DNA of 63,629 nucleotides, the filler included, from Collodictyon triciliatum (lineage: Eukaryota): the NCBI GenBank assembly GCA_043381765.1. It is 7 parts of 7 records of this genome, joined end to end, with 100 filler letters (N's around TTAATTAATTAA, not from the genome) between each part and the next. Parts side by side here need not be neighbours in the genome. Positions count along the whole stretch, not along the records: positions 48,771 to 59,028 come from JBHJMP010002744.1; 6 more parts are not named here. One strand, written 5' to 3'. The notes under the pieces are model-generated. The model was given only the letters and a program-made list of their open reading frames with translations, did no database searches and had not been told where the DNA came from. Position numbers and translations under genes: made by a program. Positions 10,363-56,800 of the stretch are shown here, piece by piece. Position 1 is the stretch's first letter. The number at the start of each line of letters is the position of its first letter.

Positions 10363-11670
10363 GGATGCAATTCAAAGACAGAGCGGGGTGTATCAAGGCT
10401 GCCCACTTGCACCACTGCTCTTCAACTTTGTCGCTGACTGCCTTGCAAACCACTTCCGAAACGAAAACAAGGTGCACAACCGATTGCTACTTCAGTATGC
10501 AGACGACACAGCATTCATCTTGCGGTCTCCCGAAGGCGCCACACTCGCTAACAAATGCATGCAAGAATACACACGAGCTGTCAGCGGAAGAATCAACTAC
10601 AAAAAGACAGATGTAATTATTTTTGGGTTTCAGGATGGACTTATGTTTCCAGGAAACATTGTGTGGAAGCCACCGTCACATCCACTCAAGTACCTTGGTA
10701 TCATATTCGGTCCACAATCGGATAGCAAATGGACAAGCCTGGTTGAGTACATCAAGTCGAAAATATCAGTGTGGAGCAACTTTCATCTCTCGGACGTGGG
10801 AAAAGTAAGGTTGTGGAACTAAGCGATGCTGTCGACCCTTATCTACAACATGAAAGGCACTTTGCTGAATCCCAAGAGGCTGAAGGAGCTGAAAGACACC
10901 TGCCGCAACTTCATCACTACCAATAATCAAAAATACAAATGCTGGAAGCAAGCCCGTATACCTCAGCTACTTCCGAAACACCACGCCCTACCGCTCAATA
11001 TCTCCAACAGAGAGCTGTAGATAGGTGCGTGTGTATTCCATGCAGCAACGACCTCTCCAGAATACACCATGCGCCATAGTGGAGACGACTCTATCGAACA
11101 TACATTTGTGAAGTGCTCTCTTGCTCAAAAAGTGACAGAGTCTACCCACAAGATGCTCTCTGAGCTGGATTATGCTCCCAACCGTCTCAGCGCGTCTGAC
11201 ATCCTGTTTGGCCCACAATACCAAATGACCCACGACTCTAGAATACTCTGGACAGTCACAAGGGGACATATGCTGTGGTCCTTATGGAATGTGCGTGCAT
11301 TATCTCGCTCTAATGATTTGACCGAAAGAGAAATCAATGTGTCGAGGCTGGAAATTATCGTGCAATACAGCTTCCTGAACAGCCTGCTGAAACACGCTCG
11401 CATTCTTCGCTACTCCGACCGCAAGCGAAGGGAGATGGGGGAATGTGTCGTGCGATATCTCCCACAGCATATCCAATCCCTGCTATCCACGCAACCAATC
11501 AACCAGTTGGGACGCCCGCCTGACCAACTCGCTATCGCTGATTATCTTCCAGTACCATCATACCCACTGTAGTGTCGTCTTCTATTCACGTTTGCTCTCT
11601 CCCATGAGCAGCTATCTCGCCTCTTGTATGGCATAACCTTGTTGCGCTATGAATCGAATAAAGGGAAGTA
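10363..11670 (+). mobile_element. Decayed non-LTR retrotransposon (L1/Tx1-like) 3' half: RT C-terminal part, zf-RVT-like motif, 3' UTR
   Basis: SGVYQGCPLAPLLFNFVAD, LLQYADD, SGRINYKKT, LKYLGI, then DDSIEHTFVKC. Three ORFs in one frame are interrupted by TAA (10820) and TAG (11018). Ends ...CTATGAATCGAATAAAGGG. Confidence 0.92.
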
Positions 11671-12174: not shown

Positions 12175-14485
12175 TTATTGGGGGTCGGAAGAGAAGGCCG
12201 AGACCGACTTTTGCGAAAGACTCGTGGCATAGAAAGTGCCGTCGAGTCCGAAGCAGGCGCCCAGGCAGCCGTCCAAGAAGATGCGGTGCTGAACTGCGCC
12301 CTGATAGTTGTAGAAAGTGACTGTCCCGGTCTTGTTCTCGCAAACACCAAAGACACCGGGAGAGGCGCGGAATATATGCGACCAGGCCTCGACGCTTGTT
12401 GGCACTTCCAGCTTGACTTCTTTTTCGAAAATACCGTCCTTTGGAAAGATGCGGACTCTGTCGGAGCCGGCACAAAGAACTAGAAGCTTGTCCTCTTCAT
12501 TAACACAGACGCCATTGACCAGCGAGCTGATATAGCCGCCACTTTCGCTCGCGTCTCCGATGACAGAGACAAACGCGCCCTTCTTGTCGAACTTCTGGAC
12601 CCTTTGGTTCCCAGAGTCGGCCACGTAGAGGTTTCCTACACTGTCGAAAGTAACCGAGTATGGGCGATTGAGCTGGCCATTCTCCTTACCCTTCTTTCCG
12701 CCAATTGTCTTGACAAGTGTGAGCTGGCCGGTGAAGAGCTTCACAGAGTGACCTTCGCAGTCTGCAACTGCAATGAGACCGTCTTTGGAGATGGCGATTC
12801 CTCTTGGCCCGTGAAGAGCCTTTGGGATGACGAGTCCGGTGTGGTGGGAGGAAATATGGCTGAGGTCTTTTCTAAAGATGTGAACTTTTTGCGAATCTTC
12901 ATCCGTCGCATAGATGTTACCGTTCCGTGGATGCACGCAAACCGCCCACGGACACTCGATTCGGGCATCACCAGTCGACGAGTCAATCGAAACGCTGAGG
13001 GTTTTGATGTTTGCAAGCAACGCGGTGATCGAGTGAAGCGGTTCTGTTTCCGTCTTGGCTTCTTCTGTCACCGCTCCTTCTGCTTCCTCATCCGTGCTCA
13101 GGCCAAACATGAATGTCTCGTTCAGCTTCTTGAGGTCGTCCAGGATGGTTCGCGGCAGTCTTGAGACAAAGGTAAGTGGGGCAATCTCAATAGGTGTATC
13201 GTATTTGGAATAAAGGACTTGGTTGGCGAAGCGCAGTGCGTTGCCCATCTGGACCAGGGAGCGCTCGCCTTCGGGCTTTTCAATCAGCTTGCGCAGGGTT
13301 CGTTTAGCAATGTGGATTCGGCGCATTTCGTTCATGAGGCTGTTCTGCGAGTTCCTCAGCGGAACAAGGATGGACTCGTTCAACGCATCGAGCTGGGCAA
13401 TATTTTGTGTTAATTCCCGTTGGGGAGTGCCATTATTTTTTTTGATAAAATACTTGAAAAAGAAAGCGGTTAGGGTACCTCCTTCTTCGACTCAGCCTTG
13501 AACTGGTTGACTTGTGCTTCAAGTTCTTTCACGAACCCATCGAGTTCATTGGCCCTCTTCTGGTGCTGCTCGGCTTCCTGGATGGGTAAGATTGGTATTG
13601 TGATGTCTATGTTGGCAAACTCAGATGTATTTAGACGGAAATAAAATATTCTGAATTATCTAACCTTTCGCATCTTCAGCTGAATAGACGCAATATTCGG
13701 TGCGAGTTTGTTCTCTGACTTGTGGAGCTCTTGGATTTTGGTGGCTAGAATAGAGTTGGCGTCGAATCCTTCTTGATTGATTGGAACCCTCAGCTTTTGA
13801 TGTGGTTTATCCTCCAATACACACTCAGCGCATTTCATTGGAGACTCGGGGCAGGATGGGCAGAAGAATTTGATAGCATTCTTATGAATCGAGCAGATTT
13901 CTATTTTCCTCGCACTCGGTAAGGCCCCGAACCCGAGTTTACTGAATGAAAAATGTGAGGATGTGAATGTATCATCGCCATAATTTTAGTTCGAATCAAT
14001 TTACATGGCAGTGCATTAATGAAAAAAAAATATTCTTACTTGATAATATGGTCTTCATCATTCACTTCTGCATGCATTCCACCATGAGTTTCGCAGAATA
14101 CACCTTTCGTACCACAAATAGTGCAGTAGTGAGTGGCGTCACTTTGGCAGTTCCTACCTTTGCACTTCAGCACTGAAACGCTTGCTGCGGCCTTCCCAGC
14201 CCCGAGGCCAGCGTTAATACTTCCAAAAGAGGCCGCGTCATACTCATACGCCTTTAATTCAGCAAGTGTGTTCTCATCCACATAGGCTGGCTCGGCGCAT
14301 AGCGGGCATCGAAGCGGTGGGCCCTCGTTTGAGTCGGTGATGGCTGTTTTGATGCAGGTAGAGCAGAAAGTGTGTTGGCATGGCAGGAAACATGGGTTGT
14401 TGTACTGGCTGATGCAGACGGCGCAGAGGCCCCCGCTGAGACACTGATTAATATTGGCCTCAGAGACATTGGTCTCTAGCTCGCT
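12175..14485 (-). CDS. TRIM-NHL-like protein: C3HC4 RING, two B-box-like Zn fingers, coiled coil, NHL beta-propeller
   Basis: RING CAVCISQYNNPCFLPCQHTFCSTC...CPLC is in frame upstream of ORF 14036-14281 and was missed by the ORF track. B-boxes CKGRNC...CTIC...CETH and CSIHKNAIKFFCPSC...CAEC. NHL repeats PWAVCVHP, GPRGIAISKDG, LNRPYSVTFDSVGNLYVADSGNQRVQKFD. The RING exon has no in-frame ATG and begins at an acceptor. Confidence 0.88.
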
Positions 14486-38548: not shown

Positions 38549-41500
38549 ATGTCCCCTGCCATAACAAATAGAGTCGGTCCGGTCTTGCGGGTGGTTGGCG
38601 AGTATGTAACTCCAGAGGGTTTACTAGGTTTAGCGCTGGCCTATTACTTGGGTAAGACCATGATTCAAGTCATTGATCCTCGTGCAGAGGAGAAAGAAAA
38701 GGCTCAAAAGAACAAAGAGAGGCTGCAGTCAACACTGATGGTTTGTCGCTATGAGACGCTGTTCCTGTTTTCACTGTTTATTTTCTTCTAAATAATGGTT
38801 CCATTTCGTCCCTTAAAATACTATCTAAATAACTCCCAATCCACTATGCTACACGACAGTAGCCAGATTTTAATATTCCAAAAAAAAAATAACACTTCTG
38901 TTAGAAAAGAAACATAAACGTCGACTTCGACTTGGACGAATATGAGTCTCTTATCGCTCAAGATGTCATTAATCCTGACAACATCGAAGTTAAATTCGAA
39001 GGTTTTTTTTAATATATGCACTTATATCAAAAGATTCAATAATTCATCGAATTAATTCCATATCTTAGATTCTTTGCCTTTTTAAAAAAATTCCTTTATT
39101 CCATACAATATATGGTTTCTTATCAGCATGATTCATTCAGAAAATAACTGCATGCGCTTTATTTACAAGAATAAATATTAATTTTGGTCCTTTTTTAATT
39201 GTCCAATTATGCAATGTGGGAAAAAAAAAAGATATTGGAGGATTAGACGAGGTTAAGAGATCTCTATATGAGGTTGTCGTTCTCCCTTTTCTCCATCCCG
39301 AGCTATTTAAGCAAAACAGCTTGTTAAAGCCTCCAAAAGGGATTCTATTTTATGGACCTCCTGGTATTCTCTTTTATTCGACTTTTGTTGGGTGAGTAAA
39401 TTCAATACTAAACCAGATATTTGGCCTCAGGGACTGGAAAAACGATGCTAGCCAAAGCGGTTGCAAAAGAGACGCATGCTACTTTCATAAGTTTGTCTTT
39501 TTGTTGTTGTCTTATGAATTTTGAAGACTCTCTTGATTTAATTTGACCACCCCTCAAATAACGAATCCTCTCTCAAGTCACAAATTTACGAGCTATTTTT
39601 TTAATAGATGTGAAACTATCTATGCTCCAGGATAAATTTTTTGGTATGTGATTCGTGTACATATATATTGAGGTATCATTGATGATTTTTCTTTACCTTT
39701 TTCTTCTTTATATTTTGAGCCTCATAGATCAATTTTTTCTTTCTTTGACCAGGCAATTTGAAAATACTACATAGGTGAGAGCCAAAAACGAGCCAGGGGA
39801 TTGTTCAGCTTGGCGTATAAGATATCTCCATGCATTATCTTTATAGATGAAATTGATAGCTTCCTTCGGTATGTGGAATATATTTACGCTCTATTTGTCC
39901 TATTATAATATCCTGAATTATTATTATTATTATTATCATTATCATCATCATCATAATCATCATCATCATAGTTATCCTTTTATCTTTGCGATTGATTGCT
40001 GCATATTTTTTTAAAAAATTTTTTAGTGAAAGATCATCAAATGAGGATGCCCATCTCAGCAATCTGAAGGCAGAGTTCATGAGGTATACTATTATTTTAT
40101 TTTAACAAAATCAACATGAAACATCGTGATGCAAATTACTGAGATCCAAATCAGTATAATAATTTAATATAATCGATTTTCTGGCAATTCAAAGATGAGA
40201 CTGATGGTTAAGTTTTGTATAGTGCCTGGGATGGATTAGAGACCGATGATTCAAAGTTTGTATCATAGATTGCATCCACTAATATGATATCAAATCTTTA
40301 TCGGACTATCAAAATAAATGGTTTTGAAATCTATATTTTAGCGTAATTCAATAAACGATAATGATGATTAAGGTACGTTATTGTTATTGGAGCAACAAAT
40401 CGGCCGTTCGATGTAGACAGTGCGATTCAGCGGTAATATTGATAACAATCTCAATAGCAACCAAATTTATTTTCTCCATTCAGATTAGTCTCTAATTTTA
40501 CCTATTTTTCAAAAATATTTTTTAAAAAAATCTGCTCCAGTCGCCTCCCTCGCCAATTCCTTATAGAACTTCCAAATGAAGAGCAGAGGAACGTCATATT
40601 CAGAACAGTACAGTCTCACTCTTTCTAGTTGGCTCATTTTCAAGAATCTAAAATCTTTTCATCAGTGTTCTTACGAATAAGTGCTGGTCTGTGTGTCAGT
40701 GTGTGATTTGTCTGTGATTTGTCTGTGTGTTTATTTCGTCTGTGTGATTGTTGTTTGTGATTATTTTGTCTGTGTGATGTGTGATGTGATGCGTGATGTG
40801 ATGTAATGTGATGTGATGTGATGCGTGATGTGATGTGATGTGATGTGATGTGATGTGATGTGATGTGATGTGATGTGATGCGATACGATGCGATGCGATG
40901 TGATGTGTGTATTTTGCCTCAATACTATTTCAATTCTACCCATGCATGCTTTTTTTTTCCTGCCTTTATTCATTCAGAGTTCAACCCATGCATGTTAGAT
41001 TCTCAAGGACCAACACCTATCCAGCGATTTTGACTTTGATCTAGTGGCCAAACAAACCCATGGCTACTCAGGTGTTGAATCATAAGAAACTACGCTCTTC
41101 TTTTCTTCGATAAAAACTTAAACACCGTGACTCTCATCATGGCAATATGCTTTTAATTTACCGTGGGAACATCTCATTAAGGTTCCGATATTAAAGAGCT
41201 TTTGAAATACGCATCACTTGCCACTATTCGTCATGCTGTTGGGAGCTCTGCGACGTCCTCTGCCTCTCCTGTAAATCTCTACGGGAACTAACATTCGCAC
41301 AAAAATGCAAAATGCGACAATATTATTCGCCTTTTGACACATCACCCATCGTGATGCATCCCATTTCCGCATATCAAATCATGCAATCTAATCAGAGGTC
41401 TATATCCCATTTGGACAGGCAATCCCGAGTATTCGCCCGTTGTCGCATTTTGATATATTGCAGTCTCTTCGCCATGTCCCGCCTACTGGTTTGCACCAAC

Positions 41501-42543: not shown

Positions 42544-48480
<5,937 letters not shown>

Positions 48481-53886: not shown

Positions 53887-56800
53887 GGTGATGTCGCATT
53901 ATAATTAAACAACAACAAACCACCAAAATCCCTACCTAGAGAATCAAATCCCTTGGCAAAGACTCAGCCTAGTGGCTCGAATGATGGACTAGTCGAAGGA
54001 GTTGTTTACACACCCAAAGGGCTTTCTGAGAAAATTCTGTCTGAGATTGCCCTCAGTACAACTGCCGAAAAGTTACATTCCTTTCTGGAGGCTGTATTCG
54101 GGTTGCCACTCAAATATTGAATTGTATTTTAAATATGGGATATGCCCCGAAGGATGTTTTTATTTTTAAAATATACTTTTTTTTTCTTTCAATCCTCTTT
54201 GTTTTTCATTTGCTGGTTTATTGTCTACATTTATGTATTGGTTGATATCACAGTTAAACTGAATATAGTAACATGAATTTTTCTTTTCTTCCTTTTTCCT
54301 TTTCAATGAAATAGATACTTTGATCAGAATGCTGGCTGGGGGAATAACAACTTGTCTGAAGTTTGTCTTTCCATGATTACTAGTTCTGTCAGGGTGGGTT
54401 TATTTCATTTGTTATTTAAAAAATAGCGATACATTCAACATCTCACCATCTAGGACAAAATTGAAAGAAAGAATTTAAAAAAAAAACCGATACATAAACG
54501 GGTGATAAATATTTGCAAAAATATCATAGCAAGAATGCGAGATACTTGTCATTCTTCATTTGATCGCTCGATTGGATTTACATCGTGATAGTCCGATTGC
54601 TCGTATTGGCATATCTAAGGCGATACATCGATCCTTAGAAAAAGTCGAATCTATCCATGTTTCGTCTATTATTCAAACCACTGACGTCTTACTTCGCCAA
54701 TTGCAGCTGTCTATATCCGTAAGTTTTGTAGAATTTGCTGTAAGCGAAAGGAAATCGACTTCGTGTATGAAAAACTCACGCTTACCAATCAATCGATAGC
54801 ATAATGTCCCTACTCTGGCTCGTGAAGAAAAATTATTCCAAGATTTGATCATTTCAAATATAAGTACTTGGAAATTTCACACAGCTACAGCCTCATCATC
54901 ATACGAGTCAGTATGCCCTATACTTGCCTTCGTGCTCATTAATAAAGTTTTTTTTCTATAAACACAGACCGACTATGTTCGCTATCCTCCAATCCTGTTG
55001 ATTTGGATGAGGTCTTCTTTTTCGTGCTCGATCGCATCTCTTTCATGGACAAGCAAAGTTTGGTTGCATCAGGAGTCCTATCTGGCTTTCTGCAAACTGC
55101 ATCAACAATACTGAAACAGTTCCCAACCTACATTCGTGAGAGGCAACCATCGCCCCATATTTATACTGTCGTTTGCAGTATTATCAACACTGCTGATGCA
55201 TGTAAGATTTTTGTTTGTTTATCTTCGGACCCCTATATCGTCTTGAATTATAATTACTCAACAAGTAAAATGACATTAACGCTCTCATGTTGACTTCGAA
55301 TCGAATAAAGGGAAAAAAAAAAACGCTCTCATGTTGAATTGATTAAGGCTATTTGATGAATGTAAAGTATCATGTATATTTATGAAACGGAATCCATCAA
55401 ATAACTATTATAGTATCTCGCTCGTCTGCGTTGAGTATTCTGAGGAATCTATTAACGTCCACTCTTCGAATAATTAAGCAGCGTCCAGCACAATTAACGA
55501 AAGACGATTTCATGGTAATTTACCATTATTGAATCCGTGGCACCATTATGTCATTTAAGAGTTAACCATCTTATTCTTTTTTATCTAAATTCCTTGAGAA
55601 TATTAGTTTTATATAAACACACGAACAATCATGATTACAACCATTTCATTCTTACAATTATAATTCACATTACCATACACCCACGGCTGATGTCTCATGA
55701 ATACTTGGAAATAGTTTGTCATATTATCTCTTCGCGCAATCTTCGAATGTGCTCAAACTGCTTCAAATGTCCCAGAGCATTACGATCTAATTGCTCAAAT
55801 TGTCGCATCTGTTGTCGATATTCTTGACATTCGTGGTGTACTTTTGACTTTTTCATTCATGATGAAGCTCCAGGTTTTGCTTCACTTAATAAATTTTTTT
55901 GTTAGGAAAATTAAAAGATACTCTTGTATCTCACCTCGATACAACTCGGAAGCACCTTCGATTGTGAACTCTTTTTCTTTTTTCTTTTTCTTGTGTTTTC
56001 TTGTGTTTTCTTGTGTGTTCTTGTGTGTTCTTGTGTGTTCTTGTGTTTTCTTGCGTTTTCTTGCGTTTTCTTGTGTTTTCATGTGTTTTCATGTGTTTTC
56101 TTTTGTGAGAAATCATCGTATTAATCCCTTTTGTTCTTTTTTTTTTTTACCAAATCAGACATCCGCCATTCAATCAGGAAATATGTCTATTTTTCAACGA
56201 AACGCATTTCACTGTCTCGTTGCCAGCTATATTTGGCATATTGGACAAATCACGTCAGTCCGTGTTTTTGTTGATTATTCTATGAATGTGAGTTTACTTT
56301 ACATTTCAATCATTTATTTGATAATGCATATATTAATCGAACTTTCTCCATAAGACAATATTAAGGTTATTTTATTTTATTTTTAAATAAGCCTCCTTGT
56401 TGTTAATTTTTATAAAGGTAGTAAATGCACGCCGCGAAAATCACCAGATCAGCAAAGATATTTGGGTCGAAAATGGCTTATTTTCTGTGAATCAAATGTC
56501 AAAAAATAGGTTTTATTTTACTTATTTTCTCTCTTTATTCTTTGTTTCCTTTTCGTTGAATATTATTTATTATTATTTCGCTCCGCGTATGGATTGTGTG
56601 TCTAATATGAAAAAAAAAAAACTCGATATACCGCCCTGTAATGCGTAGGAAAATGTATACTCTATCAGTAGAATCCAGCCCCTTTGTTCCATACTCAATC
56701 TTATTCGCTGCTTTCAACAGAGTGACAGACCCTTCATTCACGCCTGTTGGATTCGCCTTTGATTCAACTGTTCTTCAGCAAATCCTTATTGACCAAATCC

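What the first reader, a model, noticed from the sequence alone, without database searches (positions are those of the whole stretch)
55278..55337. Family of ~20-nt 'nano' retroposon insertions: the LINE tail with full-length TSDs
Seen: a perfect 16-bp direct repeat flanks only CTTCGAATCGAATAAAGGG + poly-A. This matches the last ~19 nt of the LINE at 10363-11670 (CTATGAATCGAATAAAGGG) and of its copy at 23323 (CTTTGAATCGAGTAAAGGG). Three more such inserts lie in introns of other genes, on both strands and in separate contigs (33177, 40934, 43347). All have 16-17-bp TSDs, and three of the four start at the same CT..GAAT position. Established: TSD + poly-A + 5' truncation are hallmarks of target-primed reverse transcription. 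Inference: four minimal inserts in ~60 kb with a shared 5' end suggest either a stereotyped early RT abort (or host truncation) or a non-autonomous element far shorter than typical SINEs. Repeat finders would likely miss these.
Basis: partly seen in the sequence, partly recalled or inferred. Interest (0 to 1): 0.78.

Follow-up and report, generated by a model that had tools for sequence, protein, structure and literature searches.

The report
Thousands of 18-base LINE-tail stubs
A jumping gene in this single-celled eukaryote has pasted only its last ~18 bases plus a short A-tail into well over a thousand places, stopping at nearly the same base each time, which offers an unusually clean handle on why such elements usually copy themselves incompletely.

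Summary
Confirmed and extended genome-wide. The insert at 55278-55337 is a 16-bp target duplication around the last 19 nt of an L1/Tx1-like LINE plus A9. One public metagenome contig carries the exact empty site.

Exact counts in the 75-Mb genome: last 14 nt 2,515; 18 nt 1,830; 23 nt 531; 35 nt 285. Of 136 clean junctions, 81 end at -17 to -20 (mode -18, the C of CTTT), 117 at 22 nt or less. A geometric model is rejected. The peak follows sequence position, and its junctions carry only chance microhomology, unlike human truncated L1 (~80%).

It is not one fixed-length element: ends run from 3 to >100 nt. A second LINE subfamily also leaves short stubs, without a single peak. It is not a SINE.

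Best reading (0.5): reverse transcription stops at a roadblock at -18, perhaps a protein-bound 3' stem-loop, then jumps to the second strand. Rival (0.3): copying to the end of a pre-trimmed RNA. Stem-loop covariation was not significant.

The scan noted this family before on other pieces of this genome. The genome-wide curve, junction statistics and empty allele are added here.

The parts
55278..55293 (+). left target-site duplication (16 bp)
   Evidence: 16/16 identical to 55322-55337; a single copy in the empty-site contig of run X1
55294..55312 (+). last 19 nt of family-A LINE (starts at the modal C, -18 in two-G numbering; one T>C change)
55313..55321 (+). A9 tail
55322..55337 (+). right target-site duplication
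55202..55413 (+). probable host intron (GT..AG) that contains the insert
   Evidence: open frame continues across the junction; inferred, no RNA data
33177..33225 (-). family-A stub with ~11-nt core and exact 16-bp TSD
40934..40996 (-). older family-A stub, diverged core, TSD 15/17
43347..43403 (+). decayed family-A stub, TSD 12/17
10363..11665 (+). 3' part of family-A LINE ORF2 (RT domain onward, in-frame stops) plus 3' UTR; cut by contig end at 5'; lacks ~700 bp at ~10939 relative to L160; no clear A-tail
   Evidence: Pfam RVT_1 E 1e-12
23310..23639 (+). ordinary 5'-truncated family-A copy (~290 nt) with G-run, A-tail and TSD 13/16
44850..44944 (+). family-B stub (~55-60 nt of the second LINE subfamily's tail), TSD 14/14 core
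54418..54495 (+). older family-B stub (~40 nt), TSD 15/17 partly A-run

Best explanation
The stubs are target-primed reverse transcription products of an APE-type L1/Tx1-like LINE. SHOWN: the endonuclease-type target (TT|A), ~17-bp stagger, LINE-tail content, A-tail, a sharp sequence-anchored 5' end at -18/-19, and microhomology-independent joining. INFERRED: ORF2p copies the A-tail and ~18 nt, then meets a roadblock on its own RNA. The most likely roadblock is a protein-held 3'-UTR stem-loop (G-39..C-18, GUAUGGC/8-nt loop/GCUACAC) whose 3' foot is the modal stop. With the top strand already nicked, the enzyme jumps to that 3' end and starts second-strand synthesis, sometimes after adding 1-2 untemplated bases. 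Most events die here; about 10-20% read through to give longer copies.
For: Counts 2,515/1,830/531/285 for the last 14/18/23/35 nt, i.e. loss per nt 7.6%, 21.9%, 5.1% (arithmetic mine). Hazard peak at 18-19: observed 64 of 115 vs at most 32 in 20,000 geometric draws. The peak was replicated in 38 new junctions and stays at -18 for tails with 2, 3, 4 and 5+ G; there is no core-vs-tail correlation. Peak-class microhomology >=1 nt is 0.39 vs 0.42 expected (n=66), plus 9 with untemplated bases. Human 5'-truncated L1 show ~80% (PMC2912911 section 12). Folding the template left after the first 14 nt gives the stem-loop closing exactly at C-18; 93 of 96 cells are paired in 16 long copies, with one-sided wobble changes. 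In family B the largest unfolding barrier in the first 60 nt is at -20/-21, and 10 of 32 stubs are 21-25 nt long. Premature second-strand synthesis is a proposed truncation route for human L1 (PMC7617806 passages).
Against: The naked-RNA barrier at -18 is only 0.1-0.3 kcal/mol, so a protein must hold the stem, which is untested. No two-sided covariation; the score does not beat shuffles. Whole-tail folds are no more stable than shuffles (z 0.07-0.63, one at -0.16). The predicted compensatory variant of the family-B helix was seen in 0 of 100 listed matches. Blunt junctions with untemplated bases fit run-off from an RNA end equally well. The stem-loop was chosen after seeing the peak.
Confidence: 0.5

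Rival explanations
1. Run-off on a pre-trimmed template: host 5'-to-3' decay or small-RNA-guided slicing chews LINE RNA back to the footprint of bound ORF2p (or to the foot of the terminal hairpin C-18:G-2). The ORF2p-bound remnant is copied to its physical end and inserted like a full-length element.
For: Peak junctions look like full-length L1/Alu junctions, with chance-level microhomology. 21 of 136 have untemplated bases. The terminal hairpin's 5' base is exactly -18. A diverged subfamily (tail ...CCCTTCCTTCCC(A)CTTGAATCG...) keeps only the last ~18 nt in common. Two LINE subfamilies both give very short stubs, which suggests a host cause.
Against: The terminal hairpin is marginal (-0.3 to -3.6 kcal/mol), its variants mostly break pairs, and there is no covariation. 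Family B has no single peak. No RNA evidence could be obtained.
Confidence: 0.3
2. Ordinary random 5' truncation, made to look short by selection against long inserts in a gene-dense genome, by assembly collapse of long young copies, and by my TSD filter.
For: 9 of 11 anchors longer than 45 nt had no TSD call. Many 35-nt matches lie near contig ends. Family B has 285 matches at about -130 vs 1,042 tails.
Against: It cannot give a 1-2-nt peak with a cliff. The geometric null is rejected, and the TSD-independent classes still give 130 of 210 at 17-22 nt. Genome-wide counts show the same step.
Confidence: 0.08
3. Host repair nucleases (RNase H2 or flap/structure-specific nucleases) cut the nascent cDNA:RNA intermediate at a fixed distance from the nick.
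For: Both subfamilies peak about 18-25 nt from the tail. Two-G tails have somewhat more -19 ends than three-G tails (9 of 21 vs 3 of 24, p=0.04).
Against: The -19 shift did not show in the replicate subset (1 exact -19 among the 38 new junctions). The peak is fixed at -18 despite 0-8 extra G. No correlation with tail length (rho 0.10, n=65). Repair joining would be expected to use microhomology.
Confidence: 0.07
4. An independent ~18-nt non-autonomous 'nano-SINE' with its own source transcripts.
For: Very high copy number and a uniform start.
Against: No promoter or head. Continuous nested lengths from 3 to 143 nt. LINE subfamily variants are shared. Only a few inserts carry non-LINE upstream sequence, and those examined belong to another tail variant.
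Confidence: 0.05

Closest known systems
5'-truncated human L1 insertions (PMC2912911; PMC7617806)
   Same: TPRT hallmarks: 7-20-nt TSD, A-tail, T|A nick preference, APE-EN + RT + zf-RVT parent, dead on arrival
   Different: Here 117 of 136 TSD-flanked inserts are 22 nt or shorter, about half end within a 2-nt window, and microhomology is at chance rather than ~80%. The PMC2912911 survey began at 50 bp, so this size class was outside it.
Full-length L1 and Alu 5' junctions (PMC2912911 section 12)
   Same: chance-level microhomology, occasional extra nucleotides
   Different: these represent the transcript's 5' end; here the end lies 18 nt from the tail
Tailless retropseudogenes (PMC5322556)
   Same: short L1-made inserts with TSDs and structure-linked truncation hotspots
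   Different: those are 3'-truncated cellular RNAs without a tail; these are 5'-truncated LINE tips with a tail
Chlamys Penelope-like elements of Chlamydomonas (PMC9977147)
   Same: mostly very short 5'-truncated insertions in introns of a protist genome
   Different: median 128 bp, Penelope class, microsatellite target; no fixed stop was reported in the passages read
Stringent LINEs with a 3'-UTR stem-loop bound by RT (PMC5135761 abstract)
   Same: short stem-loop near the 3' end, predicted here
   Different: binding is not shown here, and no link to a truncation peak appears in what was read

Membership tests
5'-truncated TPRT insertion of an APE-type LINE | target-site duplication | tested here: met
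   163 of 302 anchors have a TSD, mode 17 bp among 136 clean; control 2 of 212
5'-truncated TPRT insertion of an APE-type LINE | 3' A-rich tail | tested here: met
   mostly 5-9 nt in 97 junctions; note the anchors required an A-run
5'-truncated TPRT insertion of an APE-type LINE | T-rich|A nick preference | tested here: met
   T 0.62 and 0.71 before, A 0.88 at the first base of the maximally extended TSD, n=136 (the extension favours A)
5'-truncated TPRT insertion of an APE-type LINE | parent with APE endonuclease + RT + zf-RVT | tested here: met
   PF03372 + PF00078 in L141 (family-B parent); PF00078 in the window copy and PF13966 in L160 (family A); L147 aligns to L141 from the ORF2 start
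5'-truncated TPRT insertion of an APE-type LINE | empty pre-insertion site with one target copy | tested here: met
   run X1, one 151-nt contig at depth 2: joint 55277>55322, skips 44, 16 letters fit both sides, 0 mismatches; also the L154 stub vs the empty paralog L141
human-type 5'-truncated L1 | microhomology-enriched 5' junction | tested here: not met
   0.48 vs 0.43 expected overall (n=115); 0.39 vs 0.42 in the peak class
human-type 5'-truncated L1 | broad, smooth length spectrum (recalled, no call) | tested here: not met
L1 versus Tx1 clade | RT phylogeny | not tested
   no tree built; the domain order fits both; among 21 hits of 1305 aa or more one is named Transposon TX1 protein, 27% identity
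SINE | own Pol III head or other non-LINE 5' part | tested here: not met
   the TSD abuts LINE sequence directly in 115 of 136; the other 21 have 1-3 extra bases
SINE | independent source transcript | not testable with these tools
   no RNA run holding the locus was served at useful share
Tailless retropseudogenes | 3'-truncated, no A-tail | tested here: not met
   3' end intact with tail
Stringent LINE with RT-bound 3' stem-loop | conserved, covarying stem-loop | tested here: inconclusive
   96.9% of cells paired, no two-sided change, not above shuffles

The most novel reading that the evidence does not exclude
In this lineage the dominant product of LINE activity is a stereotyped ~25-nt micro-insertion. 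It is made by a single programmed stop in TPRT (an RNP roadblock, or a host-trimmed RNA end) and joined without microhomology. This would be a natural, still-polymorphic readout of one discrete TPRT intermediate, possibly a host defence that converts most transposition events into harmless stubs, in a size class below the cut-offs of standard repeat surveys.
Probability: 0.6. Interest if true: 0.75.

Novelty: new variant of a known kind. Interest (0 to 1): 0.6.

Why it matters
Why LINE insertions are 5'-truncated is a long-standing open question, and in mammals the ends are scattered. Here more than a thousand natural insertions stop within 1-2 nt of one base and are joined without microhomology. 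This gives a precise, falsifiable target for in vitro TPRT and RNA-end mapping: RT roadblock with premature second-strand synthesis versus a trimmed template. It also shows that a genome can hold thousands of ~42-bp retro-insertions (stub plus duplication) that repeat surveys with a 50-bp floor would skip. At least one is polymorphic, so they are usable as strain markers.

Tried and rejected
1. Fixed-length element: rejected. Stubs of 3 nt (AGG+A9, 18-bp exact TSD, L110), 6-8 nt, 10-13 nt, 24-43 nt and 143 nt exist.
2. Apparent second peak at 11 nt: partly an artefact of assigning T/AT microhomology to the TSD; after interval scoring it is a low hump at 10-13.
3. Ruler from the poly(A) start or from the nick: not supported.
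4. Microhomology-driven stop: not supported.
5. Thermodynamic stop on naked RNA at -18: barrier negligible.
6. Covariation of either family-A hairpin: not above shuffles.
7. Compensatory change in the family-B long-range helix: 0 of 100 listed, of 285.
8. Public runs: the six holders had shares of 0.04-0.19. Only short pieces laid, so no habitat or strain claim is made, and most other laid pieces are unlike sequence.
9. Literature searches returned no paper describing a LINE with a fixed ~18-nt stop. The library lacks most subscription papers, and no supplements were read. PMC11702581 passages held nothing on point.
10. The host organism was not identified, so its own genome paper was not checked.
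11. Family B rests on 32 junctions; a larger sample remains open.

Full report
Observation. The window is several eukaryotic contigs joined by spacers. At 55278-55337 a 16/16 direct repeat flanks CTTCGAATCGAATAAAGGG and nine A. The core equals the tail of a LINE fragment at 10363-11665 (RVT_1, E 1e-12) and of a ~290-nt copy at 23323. The companions are real but uneven: 33177 has an exact TSD and an 11-nt core, 40934 has a 15/17 TSD, and 43347 has 12/17. Numbering below counts back from the second G of ...AATAAAGG, so the C of CTTT is -18 (19 nt in three-G tails).

Genome-wide abundance. G000 has 75.4 Mb in 14,576 contigs. Exact matches (control = reversed pattern): last 14 nt 2,515 vs 1; 18 nt 1,830 vs 0; 23 nt 531 vs 0; 35 nt 285 vs 0. 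Loss per base is 7.6%, 21.9% and 5.1% in the three intervals. Allowing 3-5% per base for mutation, roughly 1,150-1,200 exact-tail copies begin between -18 and -22 (my arithmetic). An RT-domain search gave 151 matches from 150 of 265 candidates scored, across subfamilies, so tails outnumber RT-bearing copies about tenfold. Long young copies may be under-assembled.

Junction analysis. I held 300 loci (922 kb), taken in contig order from the first places listed, not at random. Because a 15-nt query hides shorter inserts, I re-anchored on 9-10-nt motifs and then scanned all held DNA with a 6-nt anchor. Of 302 anchors, 163 had a TSD above threshold. Twenty-seven were dropped (more than 3 unexplained bases, low complexity, or TSD outside 12-24 bp), leaving 136. 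The swapped-flank control gave 2 of 212 against 116 of 212. Weighted 5' ends: 44.8 at -18, 19.2 at -19, 9.3 at -17; 81 of 136 in -17..-20; 117 at 22 nt or less; 135 at 45 nt or less. The 38 junctions fetched last reproduce the peak (15.8 at -18). Hazard is 0.48 and 0.39 at -18 and -19, against 0.01-0.19 at 14-17 and 20-30 nt (a few sparse positions further out reach 0.3-0.5 on 10 or fewer copies at risk). A fitted geometric model never exceeded 32 in 20,000 draws against 64 observed. Without any TSD requirement, 130 of 210 anchors match the tail for 17-22 nt, 38 for 14-16, 31 for 23-45 and 11 for more; 9 of those 11 lacked a TSD call, so the TSD set under-represents long copies. An anchor-free scan found stubs as short as AGG+A9 with an 18-bp exact TSD.

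TPRT hallmarks. TSD mode is 17 bp; the first-nick context is TT|A; the TSD's 3' base is T in 68 of 136. Parent proteins carry APE endonuclease, RT and zf-RVT domains, i.e. L1/Tx1-like; no tree was built. Two empty sites were seen. One 151-nt contig at depth 2 in public run X1 joins 55277 to 55322 with one target copy and no mismatch; this is a single low-depth record. A stub inside a family-B LINE copy (L154) is absent from the paralog L141.

What sets the stop. It is tied to sequence. The mode is -18 for tails with two, three, four and five or more G, and core length does not correlate with tail length. A mild excess of -19 in two-G tails (p=0.04) did not show in the replicate subset. Microhomology is at chance: 0.48 vs 0.43 overall and 0.39 vs 0.42 in the peak class; 21 of 136 junctions have 1-3 untemplated bases. 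In PMC2912911 (passages and section 12 read), nearly 80% of 5'-truncated human L1 carry microhomology, while full-length L1 and Alu are at chance; that survey started at 50 bp. So these junctions resemble a clean template switch, not repair-mediated annealing.

Two predicted structures meet at C-18. One is an upstream stem-loop G-39..C-18 that forms once the first 14 nt are removed; the other is a terminal hairpin C-18..G-2. In 16 distinct long copies the upstream stem keeps 93 of 96 cells paired, through one-sided wobble changes. Its 5' arm changes at 3 of 175 sites against 11 of 200 in the loop (25 copies). However, there is no two-sided covariation, neither structure beats shuffles, and the naked-RNA barrier at -18 is at most 0.3 kcal/mol.

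Second family. The tail ...CCTGCACAAAATTGAAAGGAAGAAT+A (1,042 vs 9) is the 3' end of the L141-type subfamily, which is ~70% identical to family A in the RT. Of 33 TSD-flanked anchors (one composite dropped), 29 of 32 are 14-51 nt, 10 of them 21-25 nt, near the largest predicted barrier (-20/-21). There is no single peak, and 285 copies reach about -130. The predicted compensatory variant was not seen in 100 listed matches. Extreme shortness is therefore shared by both families, and the sharp stop is family-specific.

Mechanism. Best (0.5): early RT stop at an RNP roadblock at -18, then premature second-strand synthesis from an already nicked top strand, a route proposed for human L1 in PMC7617806 (passages). 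Rival (0.3): run-off on an RNA trimmed to a protected 3' remnant. Sequence alone cannot separate these two. Random truncation plus selection (0.08), fixed-distance repair cutting (0.07) and an independent nano-SINE (0.05) each fail at least one test above.

Comparison and novelty. The stubs are TPRT products of an APE-type LINE, but they fail two features of human-type truncated L1: microhomology and a smooth spectrum. Nearest short analogues in print that I saw: tailless retropseudogenes (PMC5322556, passages) and Chlamys elements with median 128 bp (PMC9977147, passages). 3' stem-loop recognition is summarised in PMC5135761 (abstract and outline only). Eight searches found no report of a fixed ~18-nt stop; the library is incomplete and supplements were not read. 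This scan noted the same family on at least eight other pieces of this genome; those notes agree, and one pointed to PMC2912911. Verdict: real, a new variant of a known kind, interest 0.6.

Noticed in passing
window 10363-11665; L123, L124, L128, L130, L132, L133, L137, L144, L148: The window LINE and nine other copies share a ~700-bp internal deletion at window ~10939 relative to L160/L125/L126: an amplified non-autonomous deletion derivative.
   Followed up: partly
   Followed up: yes
L064, L065, L087, L118: A third tail variant (...CCCTTCCTTCCC(A)CTTGAATCGAATAAAGG) shares only the last ~18 nt with family A; parent not found.
   Followed up: no
L196, L209, L213: Family-B variant with CCTCGGTCCTGCAC instead of CCACCATCCTGCAC; no long copy held.
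   Followed up: partly
L028: A family-A stub whose tail continues as AAGAAT, making a composite A/B-like end.
   Followed up: no
L147 (1-1356 and from ~5648), L143 (~1123-1369): An LTR-retrotransposon-like integrase/chromodomain-type frame (label from recall) and a shared non-LINE segment interrupting two different LINE copies.
   Followed up: no
window 12175-13491 and 60470-61879; 14036-14485 and 59242-59643: RING/B-box plus NHL-repeat (TRIM-like) genes; labels from recall of motifs, no domain scan run.
   Followed up: no
window 24008-26477: Two tandem single-exon secreted beta-propeller (FG-GAP-like) genes; label from recall.
   Followed up: no
window 15048-15581 and 15827-16429: An 18-nt tandem repeat encoding (KAEEAR)n next to a short leucine-rich-repeat gene.
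   Followed up: no
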